From a virus (Duplodnaviria > Caudoviricetes): DNA of 64,000 nt. The translations under genes and the position numbers were made by a program. The DNA is taken from positions 64,001 to 128,000 of IMG/VR virus record IMGVR_UViG_3300028591_000072, one strand, 5' to 3'. Positions within the stretch are counted from its first letter, which is position 1; every line of letters begins with the position of its first letter. This document shows positions 1 to 60,359 of the stretch, piece after piece. The notes under the pieces are model-generated. The model worked only from the letters and a program-made list of their open reading frames with translations. It did no database searches and was not told where the DNA came from.

Positions 1-165
1 ATAATAACAGAAAATGAAATTGGAGAAGAAAATATAAAAAATTTTAATCCGGAAAATTTTATTAAATATACTAAAGAAATTCGAGAAAAAAGAAGAAAAG
101 AATTAAGGAAGATTAGAAAAAACAAAAAAAGTGAAAAAAATAATAATAACAGAAAATCAATTTAA
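1..165 (+). CDS. 3' end of a gene truncated by the window edge (hypothetical)
   Basis: Frame 1 is open from base 1 (IITENEIGEENIK...) to TAA at 163-165. Confidence 0.5.
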   Translation: MITENEIGEENIKNFNPENFIKYTKEIREKRRKELRKIRKNKKSEKNNNNRKSI

Positions 166-883
166 TATTTTAAAAGAAATATCTTTTAAAGAAATTTCGG
201 AAAGGTGTTCAGATATTAATACATCACCTTCAGATGCACAAATTAATGCTTCTAATTACAAGATGGGGCATTTTTACGTTAAAGGAATGCCAATATCAAT
301 AGAAAACCCAATCGGCTCAAGGAGAAAATATAAAGACGAAAACGGAAACGATGGGTTTGTTATAATGAAGAATCATTACGGATATTTTACAAATACGACC
401 GGAAACGGGAAAGACGGAGATGCTGTTGACGTTTTTATAGGGCCGTACCCTGATGATTTTGAAATGGTATATGTTATTGACCAGAACAACAAAGACGGAG
501 AATTTGATGAGAGTAAGGTAATGATTGGATTCAAGTCAAGACAAGAGGCAAAAGAAGCCTATTTATCAAATTACAGTAAAAATTGGAGAGGATTTAGGGC
601 AATAACGGGAGTGTCCTTAAAACTTTTCAAAAAATGGCTTTACAGAGGAAACAAACAAAGAAAACCATTTGCTGAATATGTTGAAATACAAAAGAAAAAA
701 TTGGAAGAAGGAAAGCAAAAAATTGATGATTTTGATGAAAGGCTGAAAAAGGCTTATTTTATGGTTATTGACAGAAATATAACGATACAATCTGCTGCAC
801 TAGCCAATTGTACAAGCGACCCAAACGATTGCCTTAGATTAATACAAGAATTAAAAAAAATGTTTAAAAGCCAATTTACATAA
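131..883 (+). CDS. Inorganic pyrophosphatase-like domain protein with shared N-terminal leader; putative internal head protein
   Basis: ISIENPIGS, HYGY, DGDAVDVFIG and FDESKVMIGF motifs of the phage/polyvalent-protein PPase domain; leader MKKIIITENQFNILKE. Confidence 0.75.
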   Translation: MKKIIITENQFNILKEISFKEISERCSDINTSPSDAQINASNYKMGHFYVKGMPISIENPIGSRRKYKDENGNDGFVIMKNHYGYFTNTTGNGKDGDAVDVFIGPYPDDFEMVYVIDQNNKDGEFDESKVMIGFKSRQEAKEAYLSNYSKNWRGFRAITGVSLKLFKKWLYRGNKQRKPFAEYVEIQKKKLEEGKQKIDDFDERLKKAYFMVIDRNITIQSAALANCTSDPNDCLRLIQELKKMFKSQFT

Positions 884-887
884 AACA

Positions 888-919
888 ATGGGGTAGCGAA
901 TAATCGTTACCCCATTTTT
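888..919. terminator. Intrinsic terminator between convergent genes
   Basis: atggggtagcga-ataa-tcgttaccccat hairpin followed by a T-run. Confidence 0.75.
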
Positions 920-922
920 ATA

Positions 923-1568
923 GGTAATTATATAATTGTTGGCACAAGATTATAAATCTTCTCCATTAGCTTTGTTTATTTCATTATCATAATATATTGT
1001 GAGATAATATTTACCATAATATTCCGCTATTCTAAACCAAACAGTGTTATCCTCTATCATACCATCAGATACTATCTGATAAAAATACGCATCATAAAGC
1101 TTATTATGACAAGTCATTTCATATGAAATATCTTCGTTTAGTGATATTTTTTCACCTCCAATAAGAACATACTTTTTATTATTATAAAATTGGCTAAACC
1201 ATGTGTTAAATTCTAGAATAATACTTGATTCATCATGTGTCTTTGTTTCGGCTAAATAAATTCTATACACTTTTTTATGATTTGTACATACGAATAAGTG
1301 AACAGAAGCACCATTAAATGTACCCTTTAAAATTGGTAATTGTTTACCTTCCATTTCAAATTTTTCAGTCATTTCTTGGAATCCCTTATTCTTTAATTTC
1401 TGTATCATTTCAGATGCAGTCCCGTCAACAGGAATACCCATAAAGTTCACTTGTGCATCAACTGTTAATGATGCTACAGCTAAAAACAGTATAAATAAAA
1501 TTTTCTTCATAATTTATTATAATTTAAATAGTTATTATTCATTTTGTACCATCATGTACATAGTTCCA
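923..1568. mobile_element. Non-autonomous IS1595-derived cassette carrying one passenger gene
   Basis: Left IR ggtaattatataattgttggcacaa (923-947); right IR tttgtaccatcatgtacatagttcc (1543-1567); 8-bp direct repeat TTTTTATA at 915-922 and 1569-1576; IRs match the ends of the transposase-bearing element at 35340-37499. Confidence 0.8.
950..1510 (-). CDS. Secreted protein with signal peptide, Bacteroidota/Prevotella-like (cassette passenger)
   Basis: Signal peptide MKKILFILFLAVASLTVDAQ followed by FMGIPVDGT..KLKNKGF, a pattern I associate with Prevotella hypothetical proteins. Confidence 0.7.
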   Translation of the reverse strand: MKKILFILFLAVASLTVDAQVNFMGIPVDGTASEMIQKLKNKGFQEMTEKFEMEGKQLPILKGTFNGASVHLFVCTNHKKVYRIYLAETKTHDESSIILEFNTWFSQFYNNKKYVLIGGEKISLNEDISYEMTCHNKLYDAYFYQIVSDGMIEDNTVWFRIAEYYGKYYLTIYYDNEINKANGEDL

Positions 1569-1586
1569 TTTTTATATATAAATCAA

Positions 1587-4708: not shown

Positions 4709-4724
4709 AAATCTACATTTTATA

Positions 4725-4733
4725 ATAAATAGT
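4725..4733 (-). promoter_or_regulatory. Late-promoter motif ACTATTTAT in the gap between the ClpB N-half and the endonuclease
   Basis: Exact copy of the motif found upstream of the structural genes. Confidence 0.7.
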
Positions 4734-4752
4734 TGCTTATTGGAAAAACGGG

Positions 4753-9678: not shown

Positions 9679-9942
9679 ATGAAAACAATATATATAACAA
9701 AAGAACAAATAGATAAAATAAAAGACTTTGAATTATTGTCAGAAAACAAAGTTCCATCGGCACAAGACCAAGTTAAAAACAAGGTGAATGCAGGTGTTAT
9801 GGATGCTGTTACGGCATGTGGAACTATGGAAGAAGGAGCTGAGCCTGAATCAAAAACATACGAGTTAGGTAAAGAAAAAAACGGTGATTATTATCACATA
9901 AACGAGGAAGAAATTAATTTTTTACTTAAAACTCTGTTTTAA
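9679..9942 (+). CDS. Small late protein with shared leader
   Basis: MKTIYITKEQ...LLSE; late motif at 9650. Confidence 0.65.
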   Translation: MKTIYITKEQIDKIKDFELLSENKVPSAQDQVKNKVNAGVMDAVTACGTMEEGAEPESKTYELGKEKNGDYYHINEEEINFLLKTLF

Positions 9943-11424: not shown

Positions 11425-13098
11425 ATGTCAAGTTTTGAAGAAACTCTTGCTAGGATGAAAGGTCTTTATACCTATGGAAAAGAATTAAATGAAGGTAATG
11501 ACCTTAAAACACATACGTTAGAATACCATGCAATTGCAGCAGATGGCAAAAGCTATGGAATCATAAAAGAATGTAACAAATACTATATTAAATCAGCTCC
11601 TAAAGAAAAAGAAATGGTCGCTGAATCTTATGAATATCTTGGTGGATTTTGCAATAAGAAAAATTATGAATATAGCAGTTACGCAAACGCATTAAAGAAC
11701 TTTGAATTAAAAATGGCTTCAATTAACGAAGCTTGTGAAGGCAATGTCAACATTTCTACTTTAGACCCATTCAAAAAAGAAGAATTCTTGGTTGAATGTA
11801 CTGATAGAATGAAAAACGAAATTGCACGTCAAAGGCAAATTATGTACAACGCATCAATGATTATGAATGAAGCAAATGAAATTGGTGCTTCAAATAATGA
11901 CAACGTTGTTAAATATAACGGTACAAATCCTGAAACACCAAAGAAAAATGGTAATTCAATCAATGATGGCACTGATGCAAAAGTAGTTGACCAAGATAAA
12001 GTTAAAGGATTTAGCGGAAATAATCCGCACGAAAAGAAGACAAGTGGCCCCTACACTGAAAACCCATCAAAGGTAAATGAAGGTGCTTGCTGTGGAAAAT
12101 GTGGTAAAAACCCATGTGAATGCCAAAACTGCAACGAAGAAGCAGGCGACATTAGCGATGAACCATTAATGCCTAACACAAGAAATTGGGCAGGCCCAAA
12201 AATGGGTGCAAGTGAGCCAGACAAAATAGGTTGGGACATGGATGGACAAGAAAAAGTAAATGAAGAAACCAAAGAATGGGATGAAGGTTTACCGGGTTCA
12301 GCAGGTATTGGTGAGCCAGATACAGACCACAACAATGACCCATTTAATAAATCAATAAACGAGGGTGAAGAAGATTTTGATAACGAAGATAGCGAAAATC
12401 CTGAAGCAGACGATGATTCATTTGATTTAGGTGGAGACGAATTTGGTGACGAAACTGAAGAGTTTGGAGATGACGAACTTGGTGACGAAACTGAAGAGTT
12501 TGGAGATAACGAACTTGGTGACGAAACAGGCGAATTTGACGATGAAGAATTAACTGACGAACCTTCAGAAGATGAAGACCTAAGAAGTGAAATCGAATCA
12601 TTAAAGGCTGAAATTGAATCACTAAAAGCACAAATTAACGGAGAAGACACAGATAGTTTTGATAACACTGAAGATGAAGAAGATTTTAACAATGATTATG
12701 AATTTAGTGGAGAAGACGGAGAAGATTTTTCAACAGAAGGTGAAGTTGATGAATGCGGAGATTTCCAACAAAGTATGATGGAAGGAAAAAGAGCAAAAAT
12801 GGATAGTATAGTTGAATCTGTCGTTAAATCAATATTGAAAGAAGACGAACTCCACGTGTTTGGAAAGCACCCTGGCTACAGAAAGAAACCTATGGAACTT
12901 CCAACAACAGGTGAAGACCAAAACCAATGGGGCAGAGATTGGAATGATGAAAGTGTACACAGTGAAGAACCATTTGGAAAACAAATCGGTAATGGTGACC
13001 CATTTACACAATTGGTAAATGCAGTTACAAAAGATGTTATGTACCAATTAAAGAAAGGTATTCCGATTGAAGGCGCAAATAAAAAAAAAGTGGACTGA
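11425..13098 (+). CDS. Acidic head-core/scaffold-like protein; probably extended by a -1 frameshift
   Basis: GCTATTTAT upstream; many (I/L/V)NE sites; acidic repeats; ends at an A9 slippery run. Confidence 0.65.
   Translation: MSSFEETLARMKGLYTYGKELNEGNDLKTHTLEYHAIAADGKSYGIIKECNKYYIKSAPKEKEMVAESYEYLGGFCNKKNYEYSSYANALKNFELKMASINEACEGNVNISTLDPFKKEEFLVECTDRMKNEIARQRQIMYNASMIMNEANEIGASNNDNVVKYNGTNPETPKKNGNSINDGTDAKVVDQDKVKGFSGNNPHEKKTSGPYTENPSKVNEGACCGKCGKNPCECQNCNEEAGDISDEPLMPNTRNWAGPKMGASEPDKIGWDMDGQEKVNEETKEWDEGLPGSAGIGEPDTDHNNDPFNKSINEGEEDFDNEDSENPEADDDSFDLGGDEFGDETEEFGDDELGDETEEFGDNELGDETGEFDDEELTDEPSEDEDLRSEIESLKAEIESLKAQINGEDTDSFDNTEDEEDFNNDYEFSGEDGEDFSTEGEVDECGDFQQSMMEGKRAKMDSIVESVVKSILKEDELHVFGKHPGYRKKPMELPTTGEDQNQWGRDWNDESVHSEEPFGKQIGNGDPFTQLVNAVTKDVMYQLKKGIPIEGANKKKVD
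12436..12549 (+). repeat. Tandem 36-bp coding repeat (GDETEEFGD(D/N)EL, about 3 copies)
   Basis: ggtgacgaaactgaagagtttggagat(g/a)acgaactt repeated. Confidence 0.85.
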
Positions 13099-13739: not shown

Positions 13740-14213
13740 ATGGCAAGTATTAAAAGAATTATATTGACAAGGAAGCAATTGAACGAAGTTTTAAAAGAGG
13801 AAAACACGACAACTGTTCAATTAAACACGACCGGAAACACAATAACGTCATTGACAAATGCAGTGACAAGCAATCAGCCCGAAATAAATAACGCAGGAAA
13901 ATACGGAGATGTTAATTTACACATATCAAACCAAAAGCTAGTTGGCTCGAATGATTCAGTCCCGACACAGCACGTTGAGGTCGAAAAAGGGCAAAATGTA
14001 AACCAAGCAATACAACAGCAAGTAAACCCAACCGTTTTAAGTGACGGAGGTGATGTTGAAGTTTCCGGTGATGGAATATCTGAATATAAATCATTCTCAA
14101 AAAAGCAAATTGAAGAGGCACGTCTAAAAAAAATCCATGAAGGATATAAAACCACAAAAAGAAAATTAAAAGAACATTGGGAAGAAAAATGTCATCCCCG
14201 GAAGACGTTATAA
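13740..14213 (+). CDS. Late protein with shared leader
   Basis: MASIKRIILTRKQLNEVLKEE; late motif at 13714. Confidence 0.7.
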   Translation: MASIKRIILTRKQLNEVLKEENTTTVQLNTTGNTITSLTNAVTSNQPEINNAGKYGDVNLHISNQKLVGSNDSVPTQHVEVEKGQNVNQAIQQQVNPTVLSDGGDVEVSGDGISEYKSFSKKQIEEARLKKIHEGYKTTKRKLKEHWEEKCHPRKTL

Positions 14214-15515: not shown

Positions 15516-17339
15516 ATGGAAAAAGGTAATTTAGTTGAAATTAAAAGAGGACAAACAGGCACTGGCCTTTTAATAGAAAATGACGGATATATTTCACCTG
15601 AAATCGGTGGAAACAAAAAACTTTTCGAAGACATAAACAACGGAAACATTAGTGATGATTTTCATTGCCCATATCCGTTTATTGTTTCTGCTGTTTTCCA
15701 AAAGTTCGGCATTGAAAACGCAAATGGAAGAATATATCCTGAAGAAATATTGAAGCGTGAAGTGCAAAAATATATGGAAAAAATTGCGGAAAAAAGAGCA
15801 ATAGGAGAATGCTATAGGCCAGAGGCAATGATTCTAACTGAAAAAGGGTGGAAACATTTATATGAAGTTTCAGAAGGGGAAAATGTATTAACATTAAATA
15901 CATTAACAAATGAAATTGAAATAAAACCAATAAAATCAATAACAAAATACAAATACAATGGAAATTTGATAAACATAAAAGGAAGACAAATCAATGACAT
16001 TGTAACACCTGACCACGGTTTTCCATTATATGATAGAAATAATAAATTTAAGAAGTTTGTAACAGCAAAAGAAATATCAGACTTTGACAATTTATCACAT
16101 TATTATATCCCAAAAACAGGAAATTGGATTGGAAGAAATGATGAATATATGATAATACCAAAAATAAATGAAAGCGAATTAGGTAAAAATATTCGTCACG
16201 ACTTAAAAGATAAATATACAACTGATTTAATTATACCAATGAACATCTTTGCAAAATTCATGGGTATATATCTTTCAGAGGGCTCACATTCAAAAAAAGA
16301 AAGTAAATCAAATAAAATTAACATTCACCAAAAAAAAGAAGAAATTTGTGAAGAAATACAAAAAATGCTTGAAGAATGGGGGATTAACTTTACAATTAAC
16401 ACTTCAAAAAAATCAGGATGTAAAACATTTGTTATAAATGACATGAGACTGTGCAAATACGTACAGCAATTTGGATTGTGCTATGACAAATTTGTCCCAT
16501 TTGAATTAAAACAGCAAAACAAGGAAATACTTAAAACTTTTTATGAATGGTTTGTTATGGGAGATGGCAGAATAAGGGGTGATAAACGAAGAAAAGACAT
16601 AAATTTATCAGATGATGTTTTTTCTACATCAAAACAATTGGCTATGGATTTAAACGAAATACAACTAAAAATTGGTTATTCAGGAACATTTTCAATTGAA
16701 AAAAGAAACAATGACAGAATAATAGAAGAAAACAGGGTTATTAAAGGTGAAAATTCGCACGAAATGTATTTCAGTTATAGGTCTTTGGTTAAAGGAATAT
16801 ATATAGATAAAAGATTCCTATCAACAAGCGAAATAGATTATGACGGAGATGTTATGTGTGTTGAAGTTGATAATCATGTTTGGTATGTAATGGATAATAA
16901 TAGATGCCATTGGACAAAAAACTGTAATCACCCAAGCGAATCTGTTATTGACCTTTCAAGAGTTGCCATAAACATAGTTGAATTACATTGGGAAGGGCAT
17001 ACTTTGGTTGGAAAACTTGAAATTATAACAAGTCCTGGTTTCAGAAAACATGGCATAATTTCTTGTCAAGGTGACCAAGTTGCCAATTTGATATTACAAG
17101 GTATTAAAATAGGTGTTTCATCAAGAGGTCTTGGTACTGTAACAAATAAAATGGGCACTTTATACGTTTCTGACGACTATGAGTGCCTATGTTGGGATGT
17201 GGTTAGTGACCCTAGTACCCCAGATGCTTGGATTACGCCTGAAGGCCAAATTCCGCAGCAATATATTGAAAGTAAAAAAGCCGAAAAAAACACAATTTTT
17301 GAAGAATTAGGTAAATTTTCGGATTGGCTAAATGAATAA
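15516..17339 (+). CDS. Prohead protease (T4 gp21-like) containing an intein
   Basis: NANGRIYP, GE|..|CNHP, IGVSSRGLG, DVVSDPSTPDA. Confidence 0.9.
   Translation: MEKGNLVEIKRGQTGTGLLIENDGYISPEIGGNKKLFEDINNGNISDDFHCPYPFIVSAVFQKFGIENANGRIYPEEILKREVQKYMEKIAEKRAIGECYRPEAMILTEKGWKHLYEVSEGENVLTLNTLTNEIEIKPIKSITKYKYNGNLINIKGRQINDIVTPDHGFPLYDRNNKFKKFVTAKEISDFDNLSHYYIPKTGNWIGRNDEYMIIPKINESELGKNIRHDLKDKYTTDLIIPMNIFAKFMGIYLSEGSHSKKESKSNKINIHQKKEEICEEIQKMLEEWGINFTINTSKKSGCKTFVINDMRLCKYVQQFGLCYDKFVPFELKQQNKEILKTFYEWFVMGDGRIRGDKRRKDINLSDDVFSTSKQLAMDLNEIQLKIGYSGTFSIEKRNNDRIIEENRVIKGENSHEMYFSYRSLVKGIYIDKRFLSTSEIDYDGDVMCVEVDNHVWYVMDNNRCHWTKNCNHPSESVIDLSRVAINIVELHWEGHTLVGKLEIITSPGFRKHGIISCQGDQVANLILQGIKIGVSSRGLGTVTNKMGTLYVSDDYECLCWDVVSDPSTPDAWITPEGQIPQQYIESKKAEKNTIFEELGKFSDWLNE
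15810..16922 (+). mobile_element. 371-aa intein with LAGLIDADG endonuclease in the prohead protease
   Basis: CYRPEAMILTEKGW start, VTPDH block B, FMGIYLSEGS / FVMGDGR, ends WTKN|C. Confidence 0.9.
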
Positions 17340-17427: not shown

Positions 17428-19134
17428 ATGAGCACTAAAAATAAAAACATAGCATCTCAAGCACTTTTGGAAATGGATGCCATCACTTCTGCAATAAAAG
17501 AAGAGAGCAAAAAATCAATGAAATCTCTTTTATCTGAAGCAGTTAAGACCGCTTTAAGGGAAAGTTGCGATGAAGAAGACGATAAAGATTACGAAGTGCA
17601 AGATGAGAACGAAAAAGAAGAAAACACTTCTGATAATAAAGAAAAGAACTCAAAAAAGGGCTCAACAAATGAAATTGGTAATCCTGAAATTGGTGGTGAA
17701 GAAGAACCTGGTAATGAATCAATGAATCAACCAGGGCAAGCAGACCCACAAATGGATGCAATGCAAGGAGCACCCGCAGAAAGTCCGGAAGCAGCACAAG
17801 GAAATCCCGAAGCAAGCACGGAAGGCGGACAAGAAGGTTGGGATGAATTCTCAGATTATCAAGTGGGAGACAGTAATACATATGACCTCACAGGTGAGAA
17901 TGACTACGACACAGTAGTGAAGGTTTATAAACTCTTGAATGACGAAGACCAAGTTGTCGTTAAAAAAGAAGGCGATACGGTTCAACTTCAAGACAATAAT
18001 GCCGGCACTGAATATATCATTGACTTGGGTGGTGATGAAGGACAGCCTGAAGCAAACGCACAAGAAATGGAAAGTGAGGAAATGCCTGACGAACTAAACG
18101 AATCTTTGTTAGATGGCGAAGACTTTGAAAATTTCGAAGATGACGAACCATTTGAAGACGAATTTATGGATGACCAATCTGTTATTGGGCACGAAAACGA
18201 TGACCCATTCATTTATGGGGATTATGAAGACCACAGAAATAAAGATTTGGGTGACTTTGACGAATTCGATGATATGGCAGGATTCGATGATGAATTATAC
18301 GAGGGCAAAATAAGAAATAATAAAAAAGCAAGAAAGCCAATGAAAGAAAGCAAAGAAGTACTATTCGAGGTTGACCTTGGATATACAGACAATTACCAAG
18401 ACAAGGACCCGATAGCAGGACTTTCTAATAATGAACCTTCTAAGGGTGGCAAATCTTGGCACAAGGGCGTTCCAACAGGAACAGCAAAACCATGGGCCGG
18501 TGAAACAAAATCAAAAGGTGACCCATTTAAAGACACACAAAAAGTACAAGGTAGTGTAAACGAAGAAGATGGTATTGATATGGGCGGTGACGTACCAATG
18601 GAAGAACAACAAAATGTTGGTGGTTTCGTACAACAAAATTCAGTAACAACATCAAGGATACCTAACTCAAACGGAAGAAAGGCAAGAAGCCAAAGAGGTA
18701 CTGATGTTAAAACAACTGGAAGTGCAGACCCACGTTATTCTTCAGCAACAAACGAAAGCAAAGAATTAAAAGCCATTAAGAACGAAAACAAAGAGCTTAA
18801 AAAGGCAATTATGGAACTTCGCAAGAGTTTGAACGAAGCTTACATCACAAACGTTAACCTTGGAAAAATAACAAAATTGTTCCTTGAAAACGCAACATCT
18901 CAACAAGAAAAGATTGATATTGTCAATCGTTTCACAAATGAGGCAAAAACATTAGAACAAGCAAATACTCTTTACGAGTCAATCAACAAACAATTAAAAA
19001 ACAAGCAACAAATAAGTCTTAATGAGTCTTCTTCAACCGCAAACGGAACCAAAGACTTAAATGAACAAAAAATCTACAAGACAAATGATTTAATGAAAAC
19101 AATTGACTTAATGGGTAGAGTTTTGAGTTGTTAA
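17428..19134 (+). CDS. Prohead core/scaffolding protein (gp22-like position)
   Basis: Lies between protease and MCP; acidic, C-terminal coiled coil; many LNE/xxE sites; GATATTTAT at 17384. Confidence 0.75.
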   Translation: MSTKNKNIASQALLEMDAITSAIKEESKKSMKSLLSEAVKTALRESCDEEDDKDYEVQDENEKEENTSDNKEKNSKKGSTNEIGNPEIGGEEEPGNESMNQPGQADPQMDAMQGAPAESPEAAQGNPEASTEGGQEGWDEFSDYQVGDSNTYDLTGENDYDTVVKVYKLLNDEDQVVVKKEGDTVQLQDNNAGTEYIIDLGGDEGQPEANAQEMESEEMPDELNESLLDGEDFENFEDDEPFEDEFMDDQSVIGHENDDPFIYGDYEDHRNKDLGDFDEFDDMAGFDDELYEGKIRNNKKARKPMKESKEVLFEVDLGYTDNYQDKDPIAGLSNNEPSKGGKSWHKGVPTGTAKPWAGETKSKGDPFKDTQKVQGSVNEEDGIDMGGDVPMEEQQNVGGFVQQNSVTTSRIPNSNGRKARSQRGTDVKTTGSADPRYSSATNESKELKAIKNENKELKKAIMELRKSLNEAYITNVNLGKITKLFLENATSQQEKIDIVNRFTNEAKTLEQANTLYESINKQLKNKQQISLNESSSTANGTKDLNEQKIYKTNDLMKTIDLMGRVLSC

Positions 19135-35800: not shown

Positions 35801-35825
35801 CTATTTATTTGAAAAATAGATATAA

Positions 35826-36110: not shown

Positions 36111-36135
36111 CCAAGAAATAAAAGAGAATAGAAAT

Positions 36136-36441
36136 ATGAACAAGAAACAAAGAATTAGAATAAACGAGAACCAATTAAGGCAAATCGTTAGCGAATCCGT
36201 GAAAAGAATTTTAAGAGAAAACGATGATTTCACACCACATGGATATATGACGAAATCAAATCTTGGAGGAACCGAAGTACAAATTAGCAATGATGGTTCT
36301 GCGGCAAGATTTAGAAACAATTACGGAACGCCAGACAAACCGACTGATTGGCTCGAAATTGAATTTGACGAAGAAGGCGTTGCTTATGTTACTTTACCAA
36401 ATGGTAGCCAAGAAAGGTTAGACAATTATATGAGATATTAA
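36136..36441 (+). CDS. Passenger protein with shared leader
   Basis: MNKKQRIRINENQLRQIVSESVKRILRE; start moved to ATG 36136. Confidence 0.75.
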   Translation: MNKKQRIRINENQLRQIVSESVKRILRENDDFTPHGYMTKSNLGGTEVQISNDGSAARFRNNYGTPDKPTDWLEIEFDEEGVAYVTLPNGSQERLDNYMRY

Positions 36442-40900: not shown

Positions 40901-41637
40901 TTGCTGACCCAGGAACCGGTATTCCAATGATGTCAATGCATAGAGCACTTAAAAAGATAATGAAAATGAGTGACGAAGAAATAAGGGACATGTTCAATGA
41001 AATCCGTTTGGAAAAAGCAATGGCTGCTGAATTAGCTGCAACGCCTAACATAATAAAACATTCAGGAATGTTTGACGTAACAGATAGAATATATGGGGAC
41101 TATGCGGCAATGCATGGAGGTGGAACGCAGCAACAACAAGATAGCGAAAATGACGGAATGGGCGGCGGAGGAGGTGGCCCAATTGGCGGTGGTTTAGGCG
41201 GCGGAGATTTTGACATTGGAGAACCAGGTTCTGATACAGAAGGTGAACTTGGAGGCGAAGAAGGAGAAACCGACATGGAAAGTGCGCCAAATGCCGACAA
41301 CGGAACGCCATTAAATGAGCAAAAATTAAATACGACAAAATCATTTACAAAAAAATATTTTGAAAACATTAACGAAAACAAGTCACAATTAAAAAAAGCG
41401 CCAACTTCTTATTTTGACTTATATATGAATCTAATATCAGAAAGTCAAAAAGAAGAAGATGAAGTTGATGATGTTATTGATTACGACATTAAAAATAAAA
41501 CTTTACAAGAAAACATTAAAAGCATTTGCGATAAAATAGATTCTCTTATTGATGAGGATGAAATAGCACGTGAAAATTTAATAAATGAGGCCATATCCGA
41601 TTTAAATACGATTTCAGGTGAAACACTTAATGAATAA
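37948..41637 (+). CDS. Portal protein (T4 gp20-like) containing an intein
   Basis: EIGSALDIISEEA|..|CP, PYGVSML, MMEDAMLIWR, ERRVYKV, DYFIPVR, EDIEY..AMRVPK. Confidence 0.9.
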   Translation: MANNNQTIFQRLTDVFRGSNSNSVPKAVQTSKSFDERNEVLFSTNDRAEYERKLETFKQQKYLAYQWKRAGADNSMESLAGYNAVKLMYRDVDLMDGTCEIGSALDIISEEACLDGDTQIKLLNGKVFTIKELYNMRCKDFWVYSVDENGICMPSHVDSVIYKGKKNIIEITLDDDTVIKITPDHKLMLSNCEWKEASDLVEGDSLMSIYDSKDNLGYEQIISSTEYKKRPTHRVVAENVLIDEKTILLEKNTNNQKIVIHHNTFNKSNNDPSALTYMYWDEHQKLHTDLNKKRWENKEWADKMKKIFSKTAKKTWKEQRNNFIEKFKIAQKKRIEKMSEEERIKYFGRKGKNNGMFGIHRYGKSNPNYNKTVSRINNINEKEYIDTILNNGGRKELKNKFNLTKNDVIEYNRYLCKKYKINNIFNLKFNDEIFTKIKEMIINNPSLTLSEISKNINISKNTISTILKKHDTSFKDIQIKSDVWKYYKVDEKEYINTIAYLDTYNFNEKLSNKFNLTKKQISRLNKEILKKYDLKRIDHLKYVFNENYKISKIKKLISYGKNKSEILKELSLSNFHLLQICKENGYKDYQDLKKSLYNHRIKSIRKIEEESDVFDLLNSSTNNCFAIKCNNGHIISHNCPINSEGLMINIYSKSKRTKSILEDLFVNRLHIYTELPMIARHVTKYGNTFMLLNIDKSNGVMGWMMMPVYEVDREENGYGSTYTQTVPRQTTDIKPDEIRFVWKGHNGDNAYFNWQVAHFRLLNDSFFLPYGVSMLHKARRAWRMWSMMEDAMLIWRLDKAIERRVYKVYVGAIDDADVPAYINEIANNFKRTQIIDPVTGQVDLRKNFLDVSSDYFIPVRREDAPNPIETLQAANSQVQMEDIEYMQNKIFAAMRVPKTFLNFQEAQGKGQNLSFMDVRFARMIVRIQQFLLMELNKIAMIHLYLMGLSDEIGNFSLTLNSPSTVIEGQELEDLQKRLTAMQTALADPGTGIPMMSMHRALKKIMKMSDEEIRDMFNEIRLEKAMAAELAATPNIIKHSGMFDVTDRIYGDYAAMHGGGTQQQQDSENDGMGGGGGGPIGGGLGGGDFDIGEPGSDTEGELGGEEGETDMESAPNADNGTPLNEQKLNTTKSFTKKYFENINENKSQLKKAPTSYFDLYMNLISESQKEEDEVDDVIDYDIKNKTLQENIKSICDKIDSLIDEDEIARENLINEAISDLNTISGETLNE
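38284..39861 (+). mobile_element. 526-aa intein with HNH endonuclease, NUMOD3-like and HTH repeats in the portal
   Basis: CLDGDTQIKLL, ITPDH, THRVVAE..IHH..NKSNND, GKNNGMFG, VFDL..IISHN|C. Confidence 0.9.
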
Positions 41638-41666: not shown

Positions 41667-42578
41667 ATGGAAAATGCAATAAATTCTTTCAAGACAATAA
41701 AAGAAGTAGAAAATTATAAAAACGAAATAATTAAAGAGTGTAATGAAAGAATCAATTTTATAAAAATGATTCAAAAGGCAGATTATCTGTCAAATAGCCA
41801 ATTTGGGTACATAAAAGAATGTTTTGAGTCAATTTCTCCTGAATTATTTACGTCAAAAGGCGGAAAAAAAATATTAAACAAATATACATCTGTAATAAAA
41901 GAAAGCAATAATCTTTCAACAATGCATAGTATATGCGAAGCAATAAGAAAATCAGGAAAAGGAACGGATTCTTCGTTTGTTATTAATAAAATATTAGAAA
42001 GCAACAGTTCAAATATAGACAGGTCAACCTTGAAAAATGAAATAAAGTCATTAGGAATGATTTTGGCTGAAGGCTATTTGTATCTTGGAGAAAAAGCAAA
42101 TAATTTATTACCAAAAGAAAACAAGAAACTATATTCTGCAATTGGATATATTACAGAGAATAAGAGCAATTTGAAAAATATATCAGAATATACAAATGCA
42201 ATTGAAGTAATCAAGGAAAACATAGAAAACAAAGAAAAGGAAACAAACGTTTTTGAATCAAGAAATTTGGATGACTTAGCAAATGAATTGTTGGAAGAAT
42301 TCAACAAAAAATATTCAGAAACATTAAACGAAGAAGAAGCAAAGGTACTAAAGGAAATAGCTTCAAGCGAAAATCGTGAAGAAATATTTGAGAAATACAA
42401 GTCATTGTGTGCCGAATCAATTTTAGTCGCAAAGAAGTCATTTGAAGAAAAAGGTGATGAAAATTCAAGCAAAAGATTATCTTCAGTTCTCGAACAAGTG
42501 AATGGAAAAAAATATTCATTGGATACCGTTGGAGAAGATATTTGCAATTTAATAGAACTTTCAAATATTTTTGAATGA
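41667..42578 (+). CDS. Late hypothetical protein (head module)
   Basis: Late motif at 41641; FNKKYSETLNEEE; many IxE sites. Confidence 0.65.
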   Translation: MENAINSFKTIKEVENYKNEIIKECNERINFIKMIQKADYLSNSQFGYIKECFESISPELFTSKGGKKILNKYTSVIKESNNLSTMHSICEAIRKSGKGTDSSFVINKILESNSSNIDRSTLKNEIKSLGMILAEGYLYLGEKANNLLPKENKKLYSAIGYITENKSNLKNISEYTNAIEVIKENIENKEKETNVFESRNLDDLANELLEEFNKKYSETLNEEEAKVLKEIASSENREEIFEKYKSLCAESILVAKKSFEEKGDENSSKRLSSVLEQVNGKKYSLDTVGEDICNLIELSNIFE

Positions 42579-43303
42579 TGAAAAAGGTTGTTATTACAGA
42601 AGAGCAATTAAGTCATCTTGTCATGCAAGAACAATATGAAATTTTTCTTGCGCAACAGCTCAACGAATCATTGGATTTTAATTCCATAAAGAAAAAGATA
42701 AAAAGGGCGTTATTGGCCGGCGCAACGGCAGCAGCAATACTTGGTGCAGTTGCAAGGATGAACATTAACGACAATCAAAAATTAGAATTGGAACAAATGG
42801 TTGAATTGTTTTCAGACAGCATACAGCATACAGACACAATACATGAACAAAAAGTCCAAGCATGTAAAGAATATATGGAATGGGCAATGAAAAACCAAGG
42901 ATATTCTTTGGAAACAACGCAATTAACGCCAGAAGCGTTGGTTACTGCATGTGAAGAAAATAATTTTAGTTTACCATTTACCATGGCAATAGCAAACTTG
43001 GAATCTTGTTTCGGACAAACTCCAAGGTCAAAAAGGACAAACAGCGTGTTTTCTGTTGGCTCTTATGACAACGGAAAAAACGTATGCACATATTCAACCC
43101 CAGATGAAAGTATTGCTCCTTTTATTAACCTGATAAAGACAGATTATCTTCAAGATGGAGAAAAAACTATTGGGGATTTGCTGAAAACAAACGGGTTTGT
43201 AAACATGAATGGACATAGATATGCTTCGAACAAAAAATATGAGGGTCAGGTACAAAGCATAATGAACAGAATCGTTAAAATGTATCCTATACTTAATTCA
43301 TAA
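42575..43303 (+). CDS. Glucosaminidase/lysozyme-fold peptidoglycan hydrolase with leader
   Basis: KKVVITEEQL leader, LNES; AIANLESCFG..NSVFSVG..YSTPDESI..YASNKKY. Confidence 0.7.
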   Translation: MMKKVVITEEQLSHLVMQEQYEIFLAQQLNESLDFNSIKKKIKRALLAGATAAAILGAVARMNINDNQKLELEQMVELFSDSIQHTDTIHEQKVQACKEYMEWAMKNQGYSLETTQLTPEALVTACEENNFSLPFTMAIANLESCFGQTPRSKRTNSVFSVGSYDNGKNVCTYSTPDESIAPFINLIKTDYLQDGEKTIGDLLKTNGFVNMNGHRYASNKKYEGQVQSIMNRIVKMYPILNS

Positions 43304-43322: not shown

Positions 43323-44219
43323 TTAAACATCGCCATTTTCTTTTTCAATATCACCATTCAAATATCGTCTAAGAATCATTTTTATTTTTGCATCTTTAAT
43401 TTTTTCTTCTTTTTCTTTAATTTTTGCTGTATATAACGCATATGCTTTTCCAATTTTATCAATTAAATATTGATATGACCTTTTTGTTATCATTTTTAAT
43501 GTTGGAAGAACACGCTCTATGTCACAATGTAAGATGTCATGACCAACTAACCAATACGCTGCAATAAAAAAATATGAATTGTTCATATCATATTTTGATA
43601 ATGTTTTTTGTGAATTTTTCAATAATGTGTATAAGTCATTTATTTCGTTATCTTGTATAAATTCAATATAATTTTCATATTTTTTATTTTTTTTCATTGC
43701 AGAAGAAAATGTCCCGTTAACAAATGCACTTATTTCATTTCTGTTACTATAATATAAAAGTTCACAAATTGTGCTAATAACAGGGTTTCTATTTCGTATT
43801 CCTTGATATATGGCATCATAAACGTCCGTATGTATTGTTCTGCCGGCGTTTTTGCATTCCCAATAATGACTGCATTCATGCATTATAGTGTCACTAACAT
43901 CGAATGTATTCATAACTCCACCAATGAAATAAAGTCCTAAATATATTGTGTTTGTCTCATATGAATATCCATCATAACGCCCAGTTTCATTTATCCAAGT
44001 TAATGCATCTTCGGGTTTATTAAATTCTTTATAGACAAAATCAACATTAACATCAGATAGTTCTGTTTTTACATTGAAAATTTTTTCTGTTATGCCATTA
44101 TTCAAATAGTCATACACTTTTTTTTCAATTAAATCAGATAGTTTAACTACTTCATCGGCGATTCCTAACTCTTCATTAATCGCATTTTCTATTTGTTCTT
44201 CAAGTATTTTGTTTCTCAT
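43323..44219 (-). CDS. HExxH metallopeptidase-like protein with leader
   Basis: AINEELGIA; TIMHECSH..EISAFVNG. Confidence 0.6.
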   Translation of the reverse strand: MRNKILEEQIENAINEELGIADEVVKLSDLIEKKVYDYLNNGITEKIFNVKTELSDVNVDFVYKEFNKPEDALTWINETGRYDGYSYETNTIYLGLYFIGGVMNTFDVSDTIMHECSHYWECKNAGRTIHTDVYDAIYQGIRNRNPVISTICELLYYSNRNEISAFVNGTFSSAMKKNKKYENYIEFIQDNEINDLYTLLKNSQKTLSKYDMNNSYFFIAAYWLVGHDILHCDIERVLPTLKMITKRSYQYLIDKIGKAYALYTAKIKEKEEKIKDAKIKMILRRYLNGDIEKENGDV

Positions 44220-58055: not shown

Positions 58056-59059
58056 ATTTTAATTATTGTGTTTTCTAAATTTATTTCTTTTCCATTTATT
58101 TTTTCTTCACGTCTTTCCAAAATGCTACGGCCATACATTAAATCAATAGTGCTTTTTTTTGCTTCTAACTTATTGTATTTTTCTTCCATTTCTTCTGTCA
58201 TATACTTATCAACAACTGATTTGCCATCTGAAACAATGTTACAGTCGAATGTAAATACAAAACTACCATCAAATACGTTTATTTCAACAAGTTTAATGTC
58301 ATCGTACTTAAACAAGCACATATCATCTGAATTCCACGCTTTGTCAGAATACCATTCAATTGTTTCAAACTCAAACAAGTCTGAACGATAATTTTTAGTT
58401 TCAAACATATCATAAAGATTTGAAATAAGTATTGCGTCAATTTTTCCAAACTGGCTTGCTGTTGTTGGTAAATAAAAATCAACAAACGCTCTGCCAATAT
58501 CATTTTTTTGCCTGACAACAATTTTTGTGACAAATTTGTCTATTTCAATCCTTGGAACAAACCCTCCACGATTTACGGTTAATGTCGTATCATAATCATA
58601 TATTCCATTTGGGACATAAACATTTCCTATTGATGTTTCTTTTCCAAAAACCTTATTATCTTGGATTGTTCGTATATGAGTGTCTTCTGTTTCATAAACG
58701 GGTGGATGCTTCATGAAATCAACATATGTTTTTTTCATAATATGTTCTGTATTTGAAAAGATTGGGTTTCCGTCTTCGTCAAATGTCATTGTTATTGTTG
58801 ACGGGTCATATTTATCAGCTTCTTTTATTATTCTATAATGCTTTTCACGAAGTTCCTCAACTTCTTTTGTAACCTTTTCCTCAAGCAAATCATTCATAAC
58901 GCCAGATTTTGGCATATTTTGATGTACACCATTGTCCGTGTTTCCACCATTTTGCCCAAACATCATCTTATTGGCAGATTCCATGCCATAAAACAATGAA
59001 ATCCAAAACAATTTAATTGTAATTAAGATTTTTTCTAATATTTTTTTAAAATTACCCAT
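58052..59059 (-). CDS. Hypothetical protein
   Basis: 335-aa ORF with overlapping start/stop coupling. Confidence 0.65.
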   Translation of the reverse strand: MGNFKKILEKILITIKLFWISLFYGMESANKMMFGQNGGNTDNGVHQNMPKSGVMNDLLEEKVTKEVEELREKHYRIIKEADKYDPSTITMTFDEDGNPIFSNTEHIMKKTYVDFMKHPPVYETEDTHIRTIQDNKVFGKETSIGNVYVPNGIYDYDTTLTVNRGGFVPRIEIDKFVTKIVVRQKNDIGRAFVDFYLPTTASQFGKIDAILISNLYDMFETKNYRSDLFEFETIEWYSDKAWNSDDMCLFKYDDIKLVEINVFDGSFVFTFDCNIVSDGKSVVDKYMTEEMEEKYNKLEAKKSTIDLMYGRSILERREEKINGKEINLENTIIKI

Positions 59060-59279
59060 TTACAGAATCAATTAAACCATTTAGTATTTTTTCCATTTCA
59101 TCAACAACCTTACCCCTAAAATCATTGTATTTTTTAAATAAAGCATATTGGTCGTTGTTAATGATTGAACCATCATAATTTTTTGATACACTTTCATATT
59201 TCACGCAAATAATTCTTAATGCCTTTTCCAATTCTAATAGAGATGACAATGTATAATCACGTAAATTTTCTTTTTCCAT
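59052..59279 (-). CDS. Hypothetical protein
   Basis: First gene of the operon, downstream of TTTGACTT. Confidence 0.6.
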   Translation of the reverse strand: MEKENLRDYTLSSLLELEKALRIICVKYESVSKNYDGSIINNDQYALFKKYNDFRGKVVDEMEKILNGLIDSVNG

Positions 59280-59366
59280 GCCTTTTTATCTTAAAAATAA
59301 TAAATTTCAAATCCAAAGTCAAATATTTTCACGAACATAAAACTATTTATCAAAAAAAAAAGAAAT

Positions 59367-59801
59367 ATGCGTTATATAACGGAAAAACAATTGAACAAAA
59401 TCATAACAGAAAGCACAATTAAGGTGTTAAAGGAATATTCAGAAAATGAAGGTGTTGCCGGAGCAATTGGTGCAGGACTTGGATGGCTTGCAAATAAAGC
59501 AAGGAATGGTGTTAATAACTTTAGCCAAAACTTCCAACAGCAATATAATGGAAACACTCAACAACAACAAGGAACAGTACAAACAGGGACTCCAACAATT
59601 GAACAATTGGCACAATATTTACAAAATTTAAATATGCGTATTTCAAATTTGGAATCTAATATGACAAATGCATCAAATAATGCACAACAATCCGCAACAG
59701 CTACTGCGAATCCAGCACGAAAAAGGACAAAAAAAAGTACAACTACCAACCAACAGCCGCCTACAGCACCAACCACTCAGGCAAAAACAACACAGCAATA
59801 A
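59367..59801 (+). CDS. Gln/Thr-rich protein with shared leader
   Basis: MRYITEKQLNKIITESTIKVLKE; late motif at 59342. Confidence 0.75.
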   Translation: MRYITEKQLNKIITESTIKVLKEYSENEGVAGAIGAGLGWLANKARNGVNNFSQNFQQQYNGNTQQQQGTVQTGTPTIEQLAQYLQNLNMRISNLESNMTNASNNAQQSATATANPARKRTKKSTTTNQQPPTAPTTQAKTTQQ

Positions 59802-59837
59802 ACGCTTAAAATAATTTATAATAACACAACATAAAAA

Positions 59838-60359
59838 ATGAACAAGAAACAAGTTATAAGAATAAGTGAACAACAACTAAGGCAAATAGTTTCCGAATGC
59901 ACAAAAAAAATATTATCGGAAAATGAATCCAATGAAGAAGACATGGAAGAAGGCTTCTTTGGAAATATGAAGGATAAACTTGGTGCAGTAAAGGACACAT
60001 TCAAAAAGGGTGGAAATTACGATGCCCATTTTAATAATCGCCAATTACAAAGAGCAAGGGGAGACATTGAAAGTCTTAAAGGAAAATACGGTGTACAAAA
60101 CGGTCAAAACGGAGCACAATACGTAAAGCAAAATTCACAAGCGGCAATAGACCAAATTAATGCAAAATATGACCAAAAAATCCAAGCATTAGAACAGCAA
60201 AGGCAATCAGAAATTGCTAAAACAACAGGCAAAACACAAAAACAATGGGATAAATACCAATCAAAGAAAGGTGCTCTTGACCAAACAAGAAATCAAGCAT
60301 ATCAAGGAAGACGTACAGCAATGAACGCAAATCCATATGCTGATTTTGCTGAAGAATAA
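59838..60359 (+). CDS. Gln-rich helical protein with shared leader
   Basis: MNKKQVIRISEQQLRQIVSECTKKILSE..MEEGFFG. Confidence 0.75.
   Translation: MNKKQVIRISEQQLRQIVSECTKKILSENESNEEDMEEGFFGNMKDKLGAVKDTFKKGGNYDAHFNNRQLQRARGDIESLKGKYGVQNGQNGAQYVKQNSQAAIDQINAKYDQKIQALEQQRQSEIAKTTGKTQKQWDKYQSKKGALDQTRNQAYQGRRTAMNANPYADFAEE

What the first reader, a model, noticed from the sequence alone, without database searches (positions are those of the whole stretch)
131..60359. Shared N-terminal leader on about 11 mostly unrelated proteins: candidate modular capsid-loading system
Seen: similar leaders start otherwise mostly unrelated proteins. 131 MKKIIITENQFNILKE (PPase); 9679 MKTIYITKEQ..LLSE; 13740 KRIILTRKQLNEVLKE; 31528 IKKIIKEELG and 44219 IENAINEELG (HExxH peptidases); 34459 IKYLVNECVKKIISE (ART-like); 35826 EDIIKESVRSVLYE; 36136 RINENQLRQIVSESVKRILRE; 42575 KKVVITEEQL..LNES (glucosaminidase); 59367 YITEKQLNKIITESTIKVLKE; 59838 RISEQQLRQIVSECTKKILSE. 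The same helix occurs inside the core/scaffold-like proteins (SIVESVVKSILKE in 11425, SLLSEAVKTALRE in 17428). Four of these genes follow the ACTATTTAT motif directly and several more lie in motif-headed operons. Established: T4 internal proteins carry an N-terminal capsid-targeting peptide, and gp21 cleaves after (I/L)-x-E. Inference: the leader co-assembles with the scaffold, is clipped by the gp21-like protease, and lets the phage load an exchangeable set of enzymes into the head for delivery with the DNA.
Basis: partly seen in the sequence, partly recalled or inferred. Interest (0 to 1): 0.88.

Follow-up and report, generated by a model that had tools for sequence, protein, structure and literature searches.

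The report
Shared capsid-loading leader on phage proteins
A giant uncultured rumen phage, and thousands of proteins from its relatives, start otherwise unrelated late proteins with the same 27-residue helix ending in the cut site of the phage's T4-type head protease. It is most likely a longer, unrelated-in-sequence version of the tag T4 uses to load proteins into its head, which would make the injected proteins of these phages readable from sequence.

Summary
A profile of the helix (x-K-K-x-I-R-L-T-E-S-x-L-x-x-I-V-x-E-S-V-K-x-x-L-x-E) finds 13 copies in the 302.6-kb genome. Shuffled proteomes give about 0.15. Eleven of the 13 start within 25 residues of the N-terminus.

- 3 are strong (36136, 59367, 59838).
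- 2 carry the second half and are backed by orthologues (34459, 35826).
- 3 carry only a weak first half (131, 13740, 42575).
- The two HExxH peptidases have their own variant.
- 9679 is unsupported.

The cargoes are mutually unrelated and shuffled. All 12 profile-supported genes lie in operons headed by the late motif that also precedes the capsid and portal genes. The phage has a gp21-type protease, a gp23-type capsid protein and a gp20-type portal. The two nearly invariant glutamates of the leader sit in L-x-E, and conservation collapses after the last one. The capsid protein keeps L-(L/I)-x-E|A/S where T4 gp23 is cut.

The leader occurs in 9,175 protein clusters, often in tandem leader-cargo arrays. 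I found it in no Pfam family, GenBank phage or paper. Packaging and cleavage are inferred, not shown. Some copies ride IS1595 transposons into Prevotella chromosomes.

The parts
36136..36219 (+). Canonical leader (28 aa) of a 101-aa protein, 36136-36441
   Evidence: 56.8 bits. The leader plus 32 nt upstream is 89% identical in DNA to the internal leader of the gene at genome 38895. The cargo is 58% identical to the C-terminal 77 aa of the gene at genome 274135.
59367..59435 (+). Leader of a 144-aa protein, 59367-59801
   Evidence: 37.3 bits. ACTATTTAT lies 16 nt upstream.
59838..59921 (+). Canonical leader of a 173-aa protein, 59838-60359
   Evidence: 48.5 bits. Second gene of the late-motif operon that starts at 59342.
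34459..34524 (+). Degenerate leader (second half) of an ART-fold protein, 34459-35385
   Evidence: 14.2 bits with the profile and 20.6 bits with the second-half matrix. Orthologues keep the helix and an invariant final Glu, and distant ones have the full leader. The model gives helix 5-20 with a low-confidence junction. The fold matches DarT and Tpt1.
35826..35882 (+). Second-half leader of a 94-aa protein, 35826-36110
   Evidence: 23.7 bits with the second-half matrix. The late motif lies 17 nt upstream. The gene lies inside the IS1595 element.
13740..13799 (+). First-half leader variant of a 157-aa protein in the head module
   Evidence: 12.4 bits with the first-half matrix. The late motif lies 17 nt upstream. 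Orthologues in L001 and L017 keep it.
42575..42622 (+). Weak first-half leader of the glucosaminidase, 42575-43303
   Evidence: 10.7 bits. PF01832. Third gene of the portal operon. It also matches part of a virion RNA polymerase PHROG. A hydrophobic segment follows the leader.
131..178 (+). Weak first-half leader of the InPase-type pyrophosphatase, 131-883
   Evidence: 10.5 bits. PF18823, E 2e-46. The domain recurs in DarB-like, minor head and virion structural PHROGs.
31528..31572 (+). Truncated variant leader of an HExxH protein, 31528-32334
   Evidence: Not found by the models. An orthologue in L002 starts with an I-I-I-T-E-E-Q-F first half.
44163..44219 (-). Variant N-terminus of the paralogous HExxH protein, 43323-44219
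   Evidence: Paralogue of 31528 (E 1e-5). Not found by the leader models.
9679..9744 (+).
   Evidence: No model scores it above background. The late motif lies 20 nt upstream.
15516..17339 (+). gp21-type prohead protease split by a LAGLIDADG intein
   Evidence: PF03420, E 3.5e-22; PF14528; PF14890. PDB 5JBL, E 1.4e-12.
17428..19134 (+). Acidic scaffold-like protein directly upstream of the capsid gene; leader-like helix at 17524-17565
   Evidence: It holds the same position as T4 gene 22. It is 22% Asp+Glu. Its N-terminal helix is conserved in 26 relatives. Resemblance to the leader is weak.
19185..21161 (+). gp23-type major capsid protein; conserved L-L-S-E|A-T at 19347-19370
   Evidence: PF07068, E 7.5e-73. 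L-(L/I)-x-E followed by A or S is conserved in about 45 relatives, 11 residues before the block that aligns with mature T4 gp23 residues 28-65.
37948..41637 (+). gp20-type portal with an intein, heading the operon that ends in the glucosaminidase
   Evidence: PF07230, E 1e-64; PF14890. The late motif lies upstream.
12808..12846 (+). Internal leader-like helix in the acidic 557-aa head-module protein, 11425-13098
   Evidence: 17.4 bits with the second-half matrix.
41667..42578 (+). 303-aa protein after the portal with 18 (L/I)-x-E sites: candidate prohead core protein
   Evidence: 5.9 sites per 100 aa against 1.3 in the proteome, the second highest density in the genome.

Best explanation
The leader is a portable N-terminal propeptide that brings late-made proteins into the assembling T4-type prohead. 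It is then removed by the gp21-type prohead protease.

It is an amphipathic helix of about three heptads. It is built of three blocks, each ending in hydrophobic-x-Glu: ..I-R-L-T-E | S-x-L-x-x-I-V-x-E | S-V-x-x-I-L-x-E |.

Inferred sequence of events:
1. The phage's late transcription makes the leader proteins together with scaffold, capsid protein and portal.
2. The helix packs against the helical scaffold or core as the shell closes around it.
3. The protease cuts after the Glu residues, frees the cargo and degrades the tag.
4. The cargo stays with the DNA and enters the next cell with it.

The cargoes are small proteins of unknown function, an ART-fold enzyme, and probably a pyrophosphatase, a glucosaminidase and zincin-type peptidases.

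Leader-cargo is the evolutionary unit. It is found alone, in tandem arrays that would be cut into pieces, or embedded in polyvalent proteins.

Shown: the motif, its position, its modularity, its co-regulation, the T4-type head genes and the match to the protease consensus. Inferred: binding to the core, cleavage, packaging and delivery.
For: 1. N-terminal enrichment: 13 copies against 0.15 expected, 11 of them N-terminal. It holds with matrices built only from relatives.

2. Portability.
- The cargoes are unrelated.
- The gene at 36136 is a mosaic. Its leader is 89% identical in DNA to another gene's leader. Its cargo is 58% identical to the C-terminal domain of a 375-aa late protein, where that domain is preceded by ..L-I-N-E|N, the same kind of junction.
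- The second unit of the gene at genome 132391 is a free-standing leader protein in L007.
- The ART-fold cargo sits inside a 1,258-aa multidomain protein in L005, right after K-T-I-I-I-S-E-R-Q-A-E-L-L-K-E-H-I-L-N-E|G.

3. Cut-site logic.
- Only two leader positions are at least 90% conserved in A1, and both are Glu in L-x-E.
- In 215 copies from the wide search, Leu is 82-86% at -2 of the first Glu. The last block is L/I 91-92% and Glu 90-91%. No residue after that exceeds 21%.
- gp21 of T4 cuts after L/I-x-E, and the 10-residue T4 tag M-K-T-Y-Q-E-F-I-A-E ends the same way (PMC9026906).
- The capsid protein of this clade keeps L-(L/I)-x-E|A/S at the place corresponding to the gp23 cut.

4. Machinery: Peptidase_S77, Gp23 and Portal_T4 are present. 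Four of 5 further near-complete leader-bearing records have Peptidase_S77. All 5 complete relatives carry 8-16 leaders.

5. Timing.
- 12 of 12 profile-supported leader genes lie in runs headed by ACTATTTAT, against 134 of 345 genes overall (p 9e-6). Seven of the 12 follow it directly, against 46 of 345 (p 2e-4).
- The same motif precedes the capsid, portal and endolysin-containing operons.
- In relative G002 a variant, ATATTTATA, precedes the capsid, scaffold and leader genes alike.

6. Cargo types. The InPase domain matches DarB-like, minor head and virion structural PHROGs. The glucosaminidase matches a virion RNA polymerase PHROG. InPase, ART, peptidase and lysozyme domains are the stock of phage polyvalent proteins predicted to be packaged (PMC5512222). 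T4 Alt is an ART with a gp21-cut propeptide (PMC9026906).
Against: - There is no protein-level evidence. No relative is cultured, and the leader is absent from 50,697 GenBank phage records.
- The leader has no detectable sequence similarity to the T4 tag and is nearly three times as long. A helix this well conserved could have a job of its own and stay on the mature protein.
- (L/I)-x-E is common: 1.3 per 100 residues in this proteome.
- The resemblance to the scaffold helix is marginal (hhalign probability 22%).
- The enzymes have only half or variant leaders.
- Two cargoes carry hydrophobic, membrane-like segments.
- Leader genes also sit in Prevotella chromosomes on IS1595 elements, which a pure head-protein reading does not predict.
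- Relatives share ancestry, so co-occurrence with the T4-type head is not independent evidence.
Confidence: 0.52

Rival explanations
1. The helix is a permanent assembly or oligomerisation element. It builds these proteins into a virion-internal structure (an inner body or bolus) or another late assembly, and it is not removed. The Glu residues belong to the helix surface and are not cut sites.
For: - The heptad-like amphipathic pattern is conserved over 27 residues, far more than a protease site needs.
- Internal copies occur in multi-unit proteins and in the acidic head-module protein at 11425.
- Late co-regulation fits equally well.
Against: - Conservation stops exactly at the last Glu, and only the two L-x-E glutamates approach invariance.
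- The same cargo domain is preceded by an L-x-E junction in two different proteins.
- In the one folded member, the leader is a separate helix with a low-confidence junction.
Confidence: 0.17
2. The helix is a docking tag for a partner that has nothing to do with the capsid. Candidates are a phage or host chaperone or unfoldase (the phage encodes a ClpB-like ATPase at 2449-6681), the membrane or lysis apparatus, or a late regulatory hub.
For: - One leader operon contains an endolysin.
- The glucosaminidase and the 59367 protein have hydrophobic segments after the leader.
- Many cargoes are acidic, unlike the basic T4 internal proteins.
Against: - No partner is identified.
- Most cargoes lack membrane segments.
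- The fit to the gp21 consensus, the conserved capsid-protein site and the polyvalent-protein cargo types would all be coincidences.
Confidence: 0.18
3. The leader belongs to the biology of the IS1595 elements that carry it, for example as an accessory protein of transposition. Phage copies would then be fallout from IS invasion.
For: - An IS1595 transposase abuts the leader gene, convergent, in 10-11 of 27 bacterial-genome loci and 6 of 87 viral loci.
- Inverted repeats enclose both genes in L201, L204 and L114.
- The window's own element, 35340-37499, has the same layout.
Against: - Only 2 of 16 leader genes in this genome lie inside an IS. One more has a lone IS end nearby.
- Most viral loci have no transposase.
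- The cargoes differ between IS copies.
- The IS-borne genes keep the phage-late-type motif even in bacterial chromosomes.
Confidence: 0.05
4. This is ordinary paralogy: one family of small proteins whose N-terminal domain is conserved by descent, with no targeting role.
For: Several members are small proteins of similar size, and two (36136 and genome 38895) are recent DNA-level duplicates in the leader region.
Against: - The regions after the leader share no similarity.
- The leader is joined to domains that exist elsewhere without it or behind other sequences.
- It heads enzymes of unrelated folds.
Confidence: 0.05

Closest known systems
[quoted passage not shown]
   Same: - An N-terminal tag shared by proteins with no other similarity.
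- It ends in (L/I)-x-E, the site of the gp21 protease.
- The phage has gp20-, gp21- and gp23-type head genes.
- The cargo genes are variable and shuffled.
- One cargo is an ART-fold enzyme, like Alt.
- The first block, M-N-K-K-L-I-R-L-T-E, is 9-11 residues long, like the 10-residue T4 tag.
(PMC9026906, PMC12373910.)
   Different: - No detectable sequence similarity to M-K-T-Y-Q-E-F-I-A-E.
- 27 residues in three E-terminated blocks instead of 10.
- It occurs in tandem leader-cargo arrays and inside multidomain proteins.
- It is found in 9,175 protein clusters of uncultured gut and rumen phages of Bacteroidota.
- Some copies are IS1595 passengers in host chromosomes.
- Function is untested.
Polyvalent proteins of phages (Iyer et al. 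2017, PMC5512222)
   Same: - The same domain stock: InPase, ART, zincin-type peptidase, lysozyme-like, pol-beta NTase.
- The predicted role is delivery with the DNA.
- A relative (L005) has a 1,258-aa protein of this kind containing the window's ART-fold domain.
   Different: - In this phage the domains are mostly unbundled, each behind its own leader.
- Processing would be by the prohead protease at L-x-E, not by an embedded peptidase domain.
Propeptides of the head and inner-body proteins of phiKZ, 201phi2-1 and SPN3US, cut by gp21-like proteases
   Same: - Jumbo phages with a diverged gp21-type protease that cuts after Glu.
- Many packaged and ejected proteins lose N-terminal propeptides.
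   Different: - Those sites are (S/A/G)-x-E, and I know of no shared targeting sequence reported for them; my literature search turned up none.
- Here the -2 residue is Leu, Ile or Val, and the whole propeptide is one conserved module.
Cargo-loading peptides of encapsulins
   Same: A short portable peptide directs unrelated enzymes into an HK97-fold shell.
   Different: Encapsulin peptides are usually C-terminal, are not cleaved and bind the shell protein directly. There is no sequence relation. This comparison rests on my own knowledge and was not tested here.

Membership tests
T4-type capsid targeting sequence / internal proteins | The same N-terminal tag on proteins that are otherwise unrelated | tested here: met
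   11 of 13 copies are N-terminal. The cargoes are unrelated.
T4-type capsid targeting sequence / internal proteins | The tag ends in the gp21 site (L/I)-x-E | tested here: met
   The last block is L/I 91-92% and Glu 90-91%. The first block is Leu 82-86%, x, Glu. Conservation collapses afterwards.
T4-type capsid targeting sequence / internal proteins | The phage encodes a gp21-family protease with a gp23-type shell and a gp20-type portal | tested here: met
   PF03420, PF07068, PF07230 and PDB 5JBL.
T4-type capsid targeting sequence / internal proteins | Sequence homology to the T4 tag M-K-T-Y-Q-E-F-I-A-E | tested here: not met
   I read the T4 tags from NC_000866. Only the format is shared: Met-Lys start, hydrophobic residues, (L/I)-x-E end. 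tblastn with leader proteins gave only chance matches in T4-like phage genomes, in topoisomerase genes at E 0.5-1.
T4-type capsid targeting sequence / internal proteins | The tag is sufficient for packaging into the head and is cleaved there | not testable with these tools
   There is no cultured relative, no proteome and no multimer modelling.
Phage polyvalent proteins (PMC5512222) | Two to 15 effector domains in one polypeptide | tested here: not met
   The window's leader proteins carry one cargo each. The feature is met only in relatives: the L005 1,258-aa ORF with WG repeats, the ART-fold domain and an NTase.
Phage polyvalent proteins (PMC5512222) | The characteristic domain stock (InPase, ART, MPTase, lysozyme) | tested here: met
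   PF18823, PF01832, HExxH proteins and an ART fold.
phiKZ-type propeptides | Cleavage motif (S/A/G)-x-E | tested here: not met
   The -2 residue is Leu, Ile or Val in over 90% of copies.
Any curated protein family covering the leader | A Pfam or PHROG model matching residues 1-30 | tested here: not met
   No family matches the N-termini of the ten window leader proteins scanned against Pfam, or of the five scanned against PHROGs. NCBIfam was not scanned.

The most novel reading that the evidence does not exclude
The leader is a general capsid-loading tag that anything can borrow. IS1595 elements carry a module made of a phage-late-type motif, the leader and a cargo, and they move it between these jumbo phages and Prevotella chromosomes. 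Copies are present in Segatella bryantii DSM 11371 and Prevotella sp. MA2016.

A chromosomal copy would be silent until a phage of this clade infects. It would then be transcribed by the phage's late machinery, and its product would be loaded into progeny heads. That product would be either a hitch-hiker that spreads with the phage or a host-side saboteur of the progeny.
Probability: 0.1. Interest if true: 0.9.

Novelty: new variant of a known kind. Interest (0 to 1): 0.7.

Why it matters
If the tag works as in T4, one 27-residue profile would list the proteins that uncultured T4-type jumbo phages of gut and rumen Bacteroidota carry in their heads and inject. In T4, those proteins turned out to be anti-restriction factors and host-modifying enzymes (PMC12373910). 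The profile already finds 9,175 protein clusters, almost all unannotated. That makes a large pool of candidate anti-defence and host-takeover proteins directly testable.

The tag would also be a handle for loading foreign proteins into such capsids. The tandem leader-cargo arrays would be a simple way to pack several effectors from one gene. The IS1595-borne copies raise a new question about traffic of late-expressed phage cargo genes between phage and host.

Tried and rejected
- A word-index search with residues 1-40 of the 59838 protein found nothing.
- tblastn of two leader proteins against GenBank phages gave only chance hits in T4-like topoisomerase genes. So no cultured phage or virion proteome could be brought in.
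I replaced it with a degenerate DNA pattern.
- The listing of cluster members and the protein atlas gave no names.
- Full-text searches for leader strings and for capsid-targeting leaders outside T4 found no description of this motif. The Jug phage paper on T4-like gut jumbo phages does not mention it.
- I rejected conservation at the DNA level (a regulatory or recombination site). Apart from one recent duplicate pair, the leaders differ freely at synonymous positions.
- I rejected a secretion signal: the helix is charged and amphipathic.
- PHROG scans left most neighbouring late genes unnamed.
- I did not use the second structure job or the last homology search.

Full report
WHAT THE WINDOW IS

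The window is bases 64001-128000 of a 302,581-bp virus record. It has about 31% G+C and is 92% coding under the standard code in my own gene set of 345 genes. Its only DNA matches among GenBank phages are short stretches of Prevotella Lak phages. Earlier notes of this scan call it an uncultured rumen or sheep-gut jumbo phage.

The window holds a T4-type head module:
- A prohead protease at 15516-17339: Peptidase_S77, E 3.5e-22, and PDB 5JBL (T4 gp21), E 1.4e-12. It is interrupted by a LAGLIDADG intein.
- An acidic scaffold-like protein at 17428-19134.
- A gp23-type major capsid protein ending at 21161: PF07068, E 7.5e-73.
- A gp20-type portal with an intein at 37948-41637: PF07230, E 1e-64.

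The quoted N-termini are there. I aligned 8 leaders of this genome with 21 from relatives (A1). The consensus is x-K-x-x-I-R-L-T-E-S-x-L-x-x-I-V-x-E-S-V-K-x-x-L-K-E.

A profile of A1 finds 8 copies of 37-57 bits and 5 of 9-16 bits in this genome. Twenty shuffled proteomes gave 0.15 hits of 8 bits or more per proteome, and none of 12 or more. The six-frame search of the record agrees. Eleven of the 13 copies begin within 25 residues of the start codon, where 15% of residues lie. The two exceptions are themselves unit starts. One follows an in-frame Met inside the gene at genome 38895. The other is the second unit of the gene at genome 132391, and that unit is a free-standing leader protein in locus L007.

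To avoid circularity I rebuilt half-motif matrices from relatives only.
- The first half picks out 13740, 42575 and 131, plus three genes outside the window. All but one of these sit at residues 2-5. There were 9 N-terminal hits of 10 bits or more, where 2.9 are expected anywhere in a shuffled proteome.
- The second half picks out 35826, 34459 and the internal helix of 11425.

The member at 9679 fails every test. The two HExxH proteins (31528 and 44219) are paralogues with their own start, though an orthologue of 31528 has a clear first half.

All 17 aligned orthologues of 34459 keep the helix and an invariant final Glu. The most distant ones carry the canonical leader. So the degenerate copy in the window is a true member.

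My verdict is that the pattern is real and highly non-random, and membership is graded: three strong, two solid, three to five weak, one false.

THE LEADER IS A PORTABLE MODULE

- After removal of the leader, no two cargoes are similar, except the two peptidases.
- The gene at 36136 is a mosaic. Its leader and 32 upstream bases are 89% identical in DNA to the internal leader at genome 39487-39597. Its cargo is 58% identical in protein to the last 77 residues of a 375-aa late protein at genome 274135-275262.
- In that larger protein the shared domain is preceded by ..F-N-E-L-I-N-E|N-E-E-F. In 36136 it is preceded by ..K-R-I-L-R-E|N-D-D-F. The same domain therefore begins right after a hydrophobic-x-Glu junction in two different settings.
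- In relative L005 the ART-fold domain of 34459 lies inside a 1,258-aa protein with WG repeats and a nucleotidyltransferase. It sits directly after K-T-I-I-I-S-E-R-Q-A-E-L-L-K-E-H-I-L-N-E|G.

SCALE

- All five complete relatives tested carry 8-16 copies.
- The profile finds 9,175 cluster representatives at E 1e-3 or better, and 730 at 1e-10 or better, among 1.84 billion proteins.
- The best 150 are mostly proteins with two or three leader-cargo units. The first unit is N-terminal in 141 of 156 proteins. The median spacing between leaders is 115 residues.
- One cluster holds both a fused 246-aa form and split 111-135-aa forms.
- None of these proteins has a name. No Pfam or PHROG family covers the leader.
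- No GenBank phage has it, and I found no paper that describes it.

ANATOMY OF THE LEADER

I anchored 215 copies from the wide search on the first Glu. The profile is:

K(-7) . . I(-4) R/K L(-2) T/N E(0) S D/Q L(+3) . . I/L I/V(+7) K E(+9) S V . K/R I/V L(+15) . E(+17)

After +17 no residue exceeds 21%. There are thus three blocks of 9-11, 9 and 8 residues, each ending in hydrophobic-x-Glu. In A1 the first and last Glu are the only positions conserved at 90% or more. The hydrophobic residues follow a heptad-like spacing, as read from the sequence. In the AlphaFold model of 34459 the leader is a separate helix (residues 5-20) with a low-confidence junction before the fold.

LINK TO THE HEAD

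T4 gp21 cuts after L/I-x-E. The T4 internal proteins share a 10-residue N-terminal capsid targeting sequence that ends that way and is sufficient to load foreign proteins. Alt, an ADP-ribosyltransferase, also loses a propeptide (PMC9026906, PMC12373910). I read the T4 tags from NC_000866: M-K-T-Y-Q-E-F-I-A-E|A.

- The capsid protein here keeps L-(L/I)-x-E followed by A or S in about 45 relatives. The site lies 11 residues before the block that aligns with residues 28-65 of mature gp23. This is the expected place for the maturation cut.
- The protease has (L/I)-x-E near both ends.
- The 303-aa protein after the portal has 18 such sites, 4.5 times the proteome density.
- The scaffold's conserved N-terminal helix..L-L-S-E-A-V-K-T-A-L-R-E followed by an acidic run (..L-V-K-E-S-L-N-E in distant relatives), resembles the leader's second half. 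The statistics are weak: 10.1 bits, and hhalign probability 22% with P 1e-3.

TIMING

ACTATTTAT occurs 57 times against 17 expected. About 45 copies lie 5-45 nt before a start codon. These include the capsid gene, the portal and several large probable tail genes.

- All 12 profile-supported leader genes lie in same-strand runs headed by the motif. The background is 134 of 345 genes (p 9e-6). Seven follow it directly (p 2e-4).
- Outside the window, leader genes form plus-strand, motif-headed islands among minus-strand genes. One island contains an endolysin.
- In relative G002 the most enriched upstream 9-mer is ATATTTATA. It precedes the capsid, scaffold and leader genes alike.

CARGO

- 131 is an InPase-type pyrophosphatase. 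Its domain recurs inside PHROGs named DarB-like antirestriction, minor head protein and virion structural protein.
- 42575 is a glucosaminidase that also matches part of a virion RNA polymerase PHROG.
- 34459 has an ART fold: DarT, Tpt1 and pierisin are the best matches, with E 1.4e-3, probability 1.0 and target TM 0.48.

These are the domains of phage polyvalent proteins, which are predicted to be packaged and injected (PMC5512222). The clear leaders, however, head small proteins (71-223 residues after the leader) of unknown function. These are acidic or basic, and two have hydrophobic segments.

AN UNEXPECTED TWIST

The exact string L-T-E-S-D-L-H-R-I-V also occurs in 27 contigs filed as bacterial. 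Most are rumen Prevotella or Bacteroidales MAG contigs, but two are isolate chromosomes: Segatella bryantii DSM 11371 and Prevotella sp. MA2016. There the leader genes lie among ordinary host genes (GH2, Pol IV, a LytTR regulator) and next to an IS1595 transposase or its remnant.

- The transposase abuts the leader gene, convergent, in 10-11 of the 27 bacterial loci and 6 of 87 viral loci.
- Inverted repeats enclose both genes in three loci.
- The window's own IS1595 element (35340-37499, with 35826 and 36136 as passengers) has the same layout.
- The IS-borne genes keep a G-A-T-A-T-T-T-A-T motif 25-40 nt before the start, even in the bacterial chromosome.
- In this genome only two of 16 leader genes lie inside an IS. 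One more has a lone IS end nearby.

So the IS is a vehicle and not the home of the family. Still, a pure head-protein reading does not predict these copies.

CONCLUSION

The best reading (about 0.5) is a T4-style capsid-targeting and cleavage propeptide. It is non-homologous in sequence to the T4 tag, three times longer, and used on a very large, exchangeable set of proteins, including tandem arrays.

The main rivals are a retained assembly helix and a docking tag for a partner unrelated to the capsid. Nothing computed here excludes them, because packaging and cleavage were not observed.

The kind of system is known from T4. The tag, its scale, the arrays and the transposon traffic are new as far as I could search.

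Noticed in passing
window 35340-37499; L201, L203, L204, L207, L114: A family of IS1595 elements carries a leader-tagged gene convergent with the transposase. It also carries a conserved divergent promoter module: a host-type TATCTTTGCA box on one strand and a phage-late-type GATATTTAT on the other. Copies lie in jumbo phages and in isolate chromosomes of Segatella bryantii DSM 11371 and Prevotella sp. MA2016.
   Followed up: partly
window 7860 and 26739 (genome 71860 and 90739): IS1595-type end repeats in inverted orientation (2 and 5 mismatches to the 26-bp end) bracket the 18.9-kb head module. This could be chance or the trace of an old composite element. A lone end also lies 187 nt before the leader gene at genome 38895.
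   Followed up: no
window 15516-17339 and 37948-41637: Both the prohead protease and the portal gene are interrupted by inteins, and the protease intein carries a LAGLIDADG endonuclease. An HNH/homing endonuclease gene, 21304-23001, follows the capsid gene.
   Followed up: no
genome 274135-275262 (L185:135-1262): A 375-aa late-motif-headed protein of unknown function. Its last 77 residues equal the cargo of 36136 and are preceded by L-I-N-E|N. It is a candidate internally processed virion protein.
   Followed up: partly
window 41667-42578: The 303-aa protein after the portal has 18 (L/I)-x-E sites, mostly I-K-E. This is the second highest density in the genome. It may be the counterpart of T4 core proteins gp67 and gp68.
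   Followed up: no
window 34459-35385: The ART-fold protein is about 55 residues shorter at the C-terminus than nearly all its orthologues (308 aa against about 360).
   Followed up: no
G002 (L083-L097), gene at 120214-121956: A 580-aa protein in a relative joins homologues of two separate genes of this phage (genome 129423 and 54183). It then continues with two internal leader copies, giving a natural multi-unit array.
   Followed up: partly
G002 whole record: Only 88% of this complete relative is coding under the standard code in my crude gene call, against 92% here. I did not check whether it uses another genetic code.
   Followed up: no
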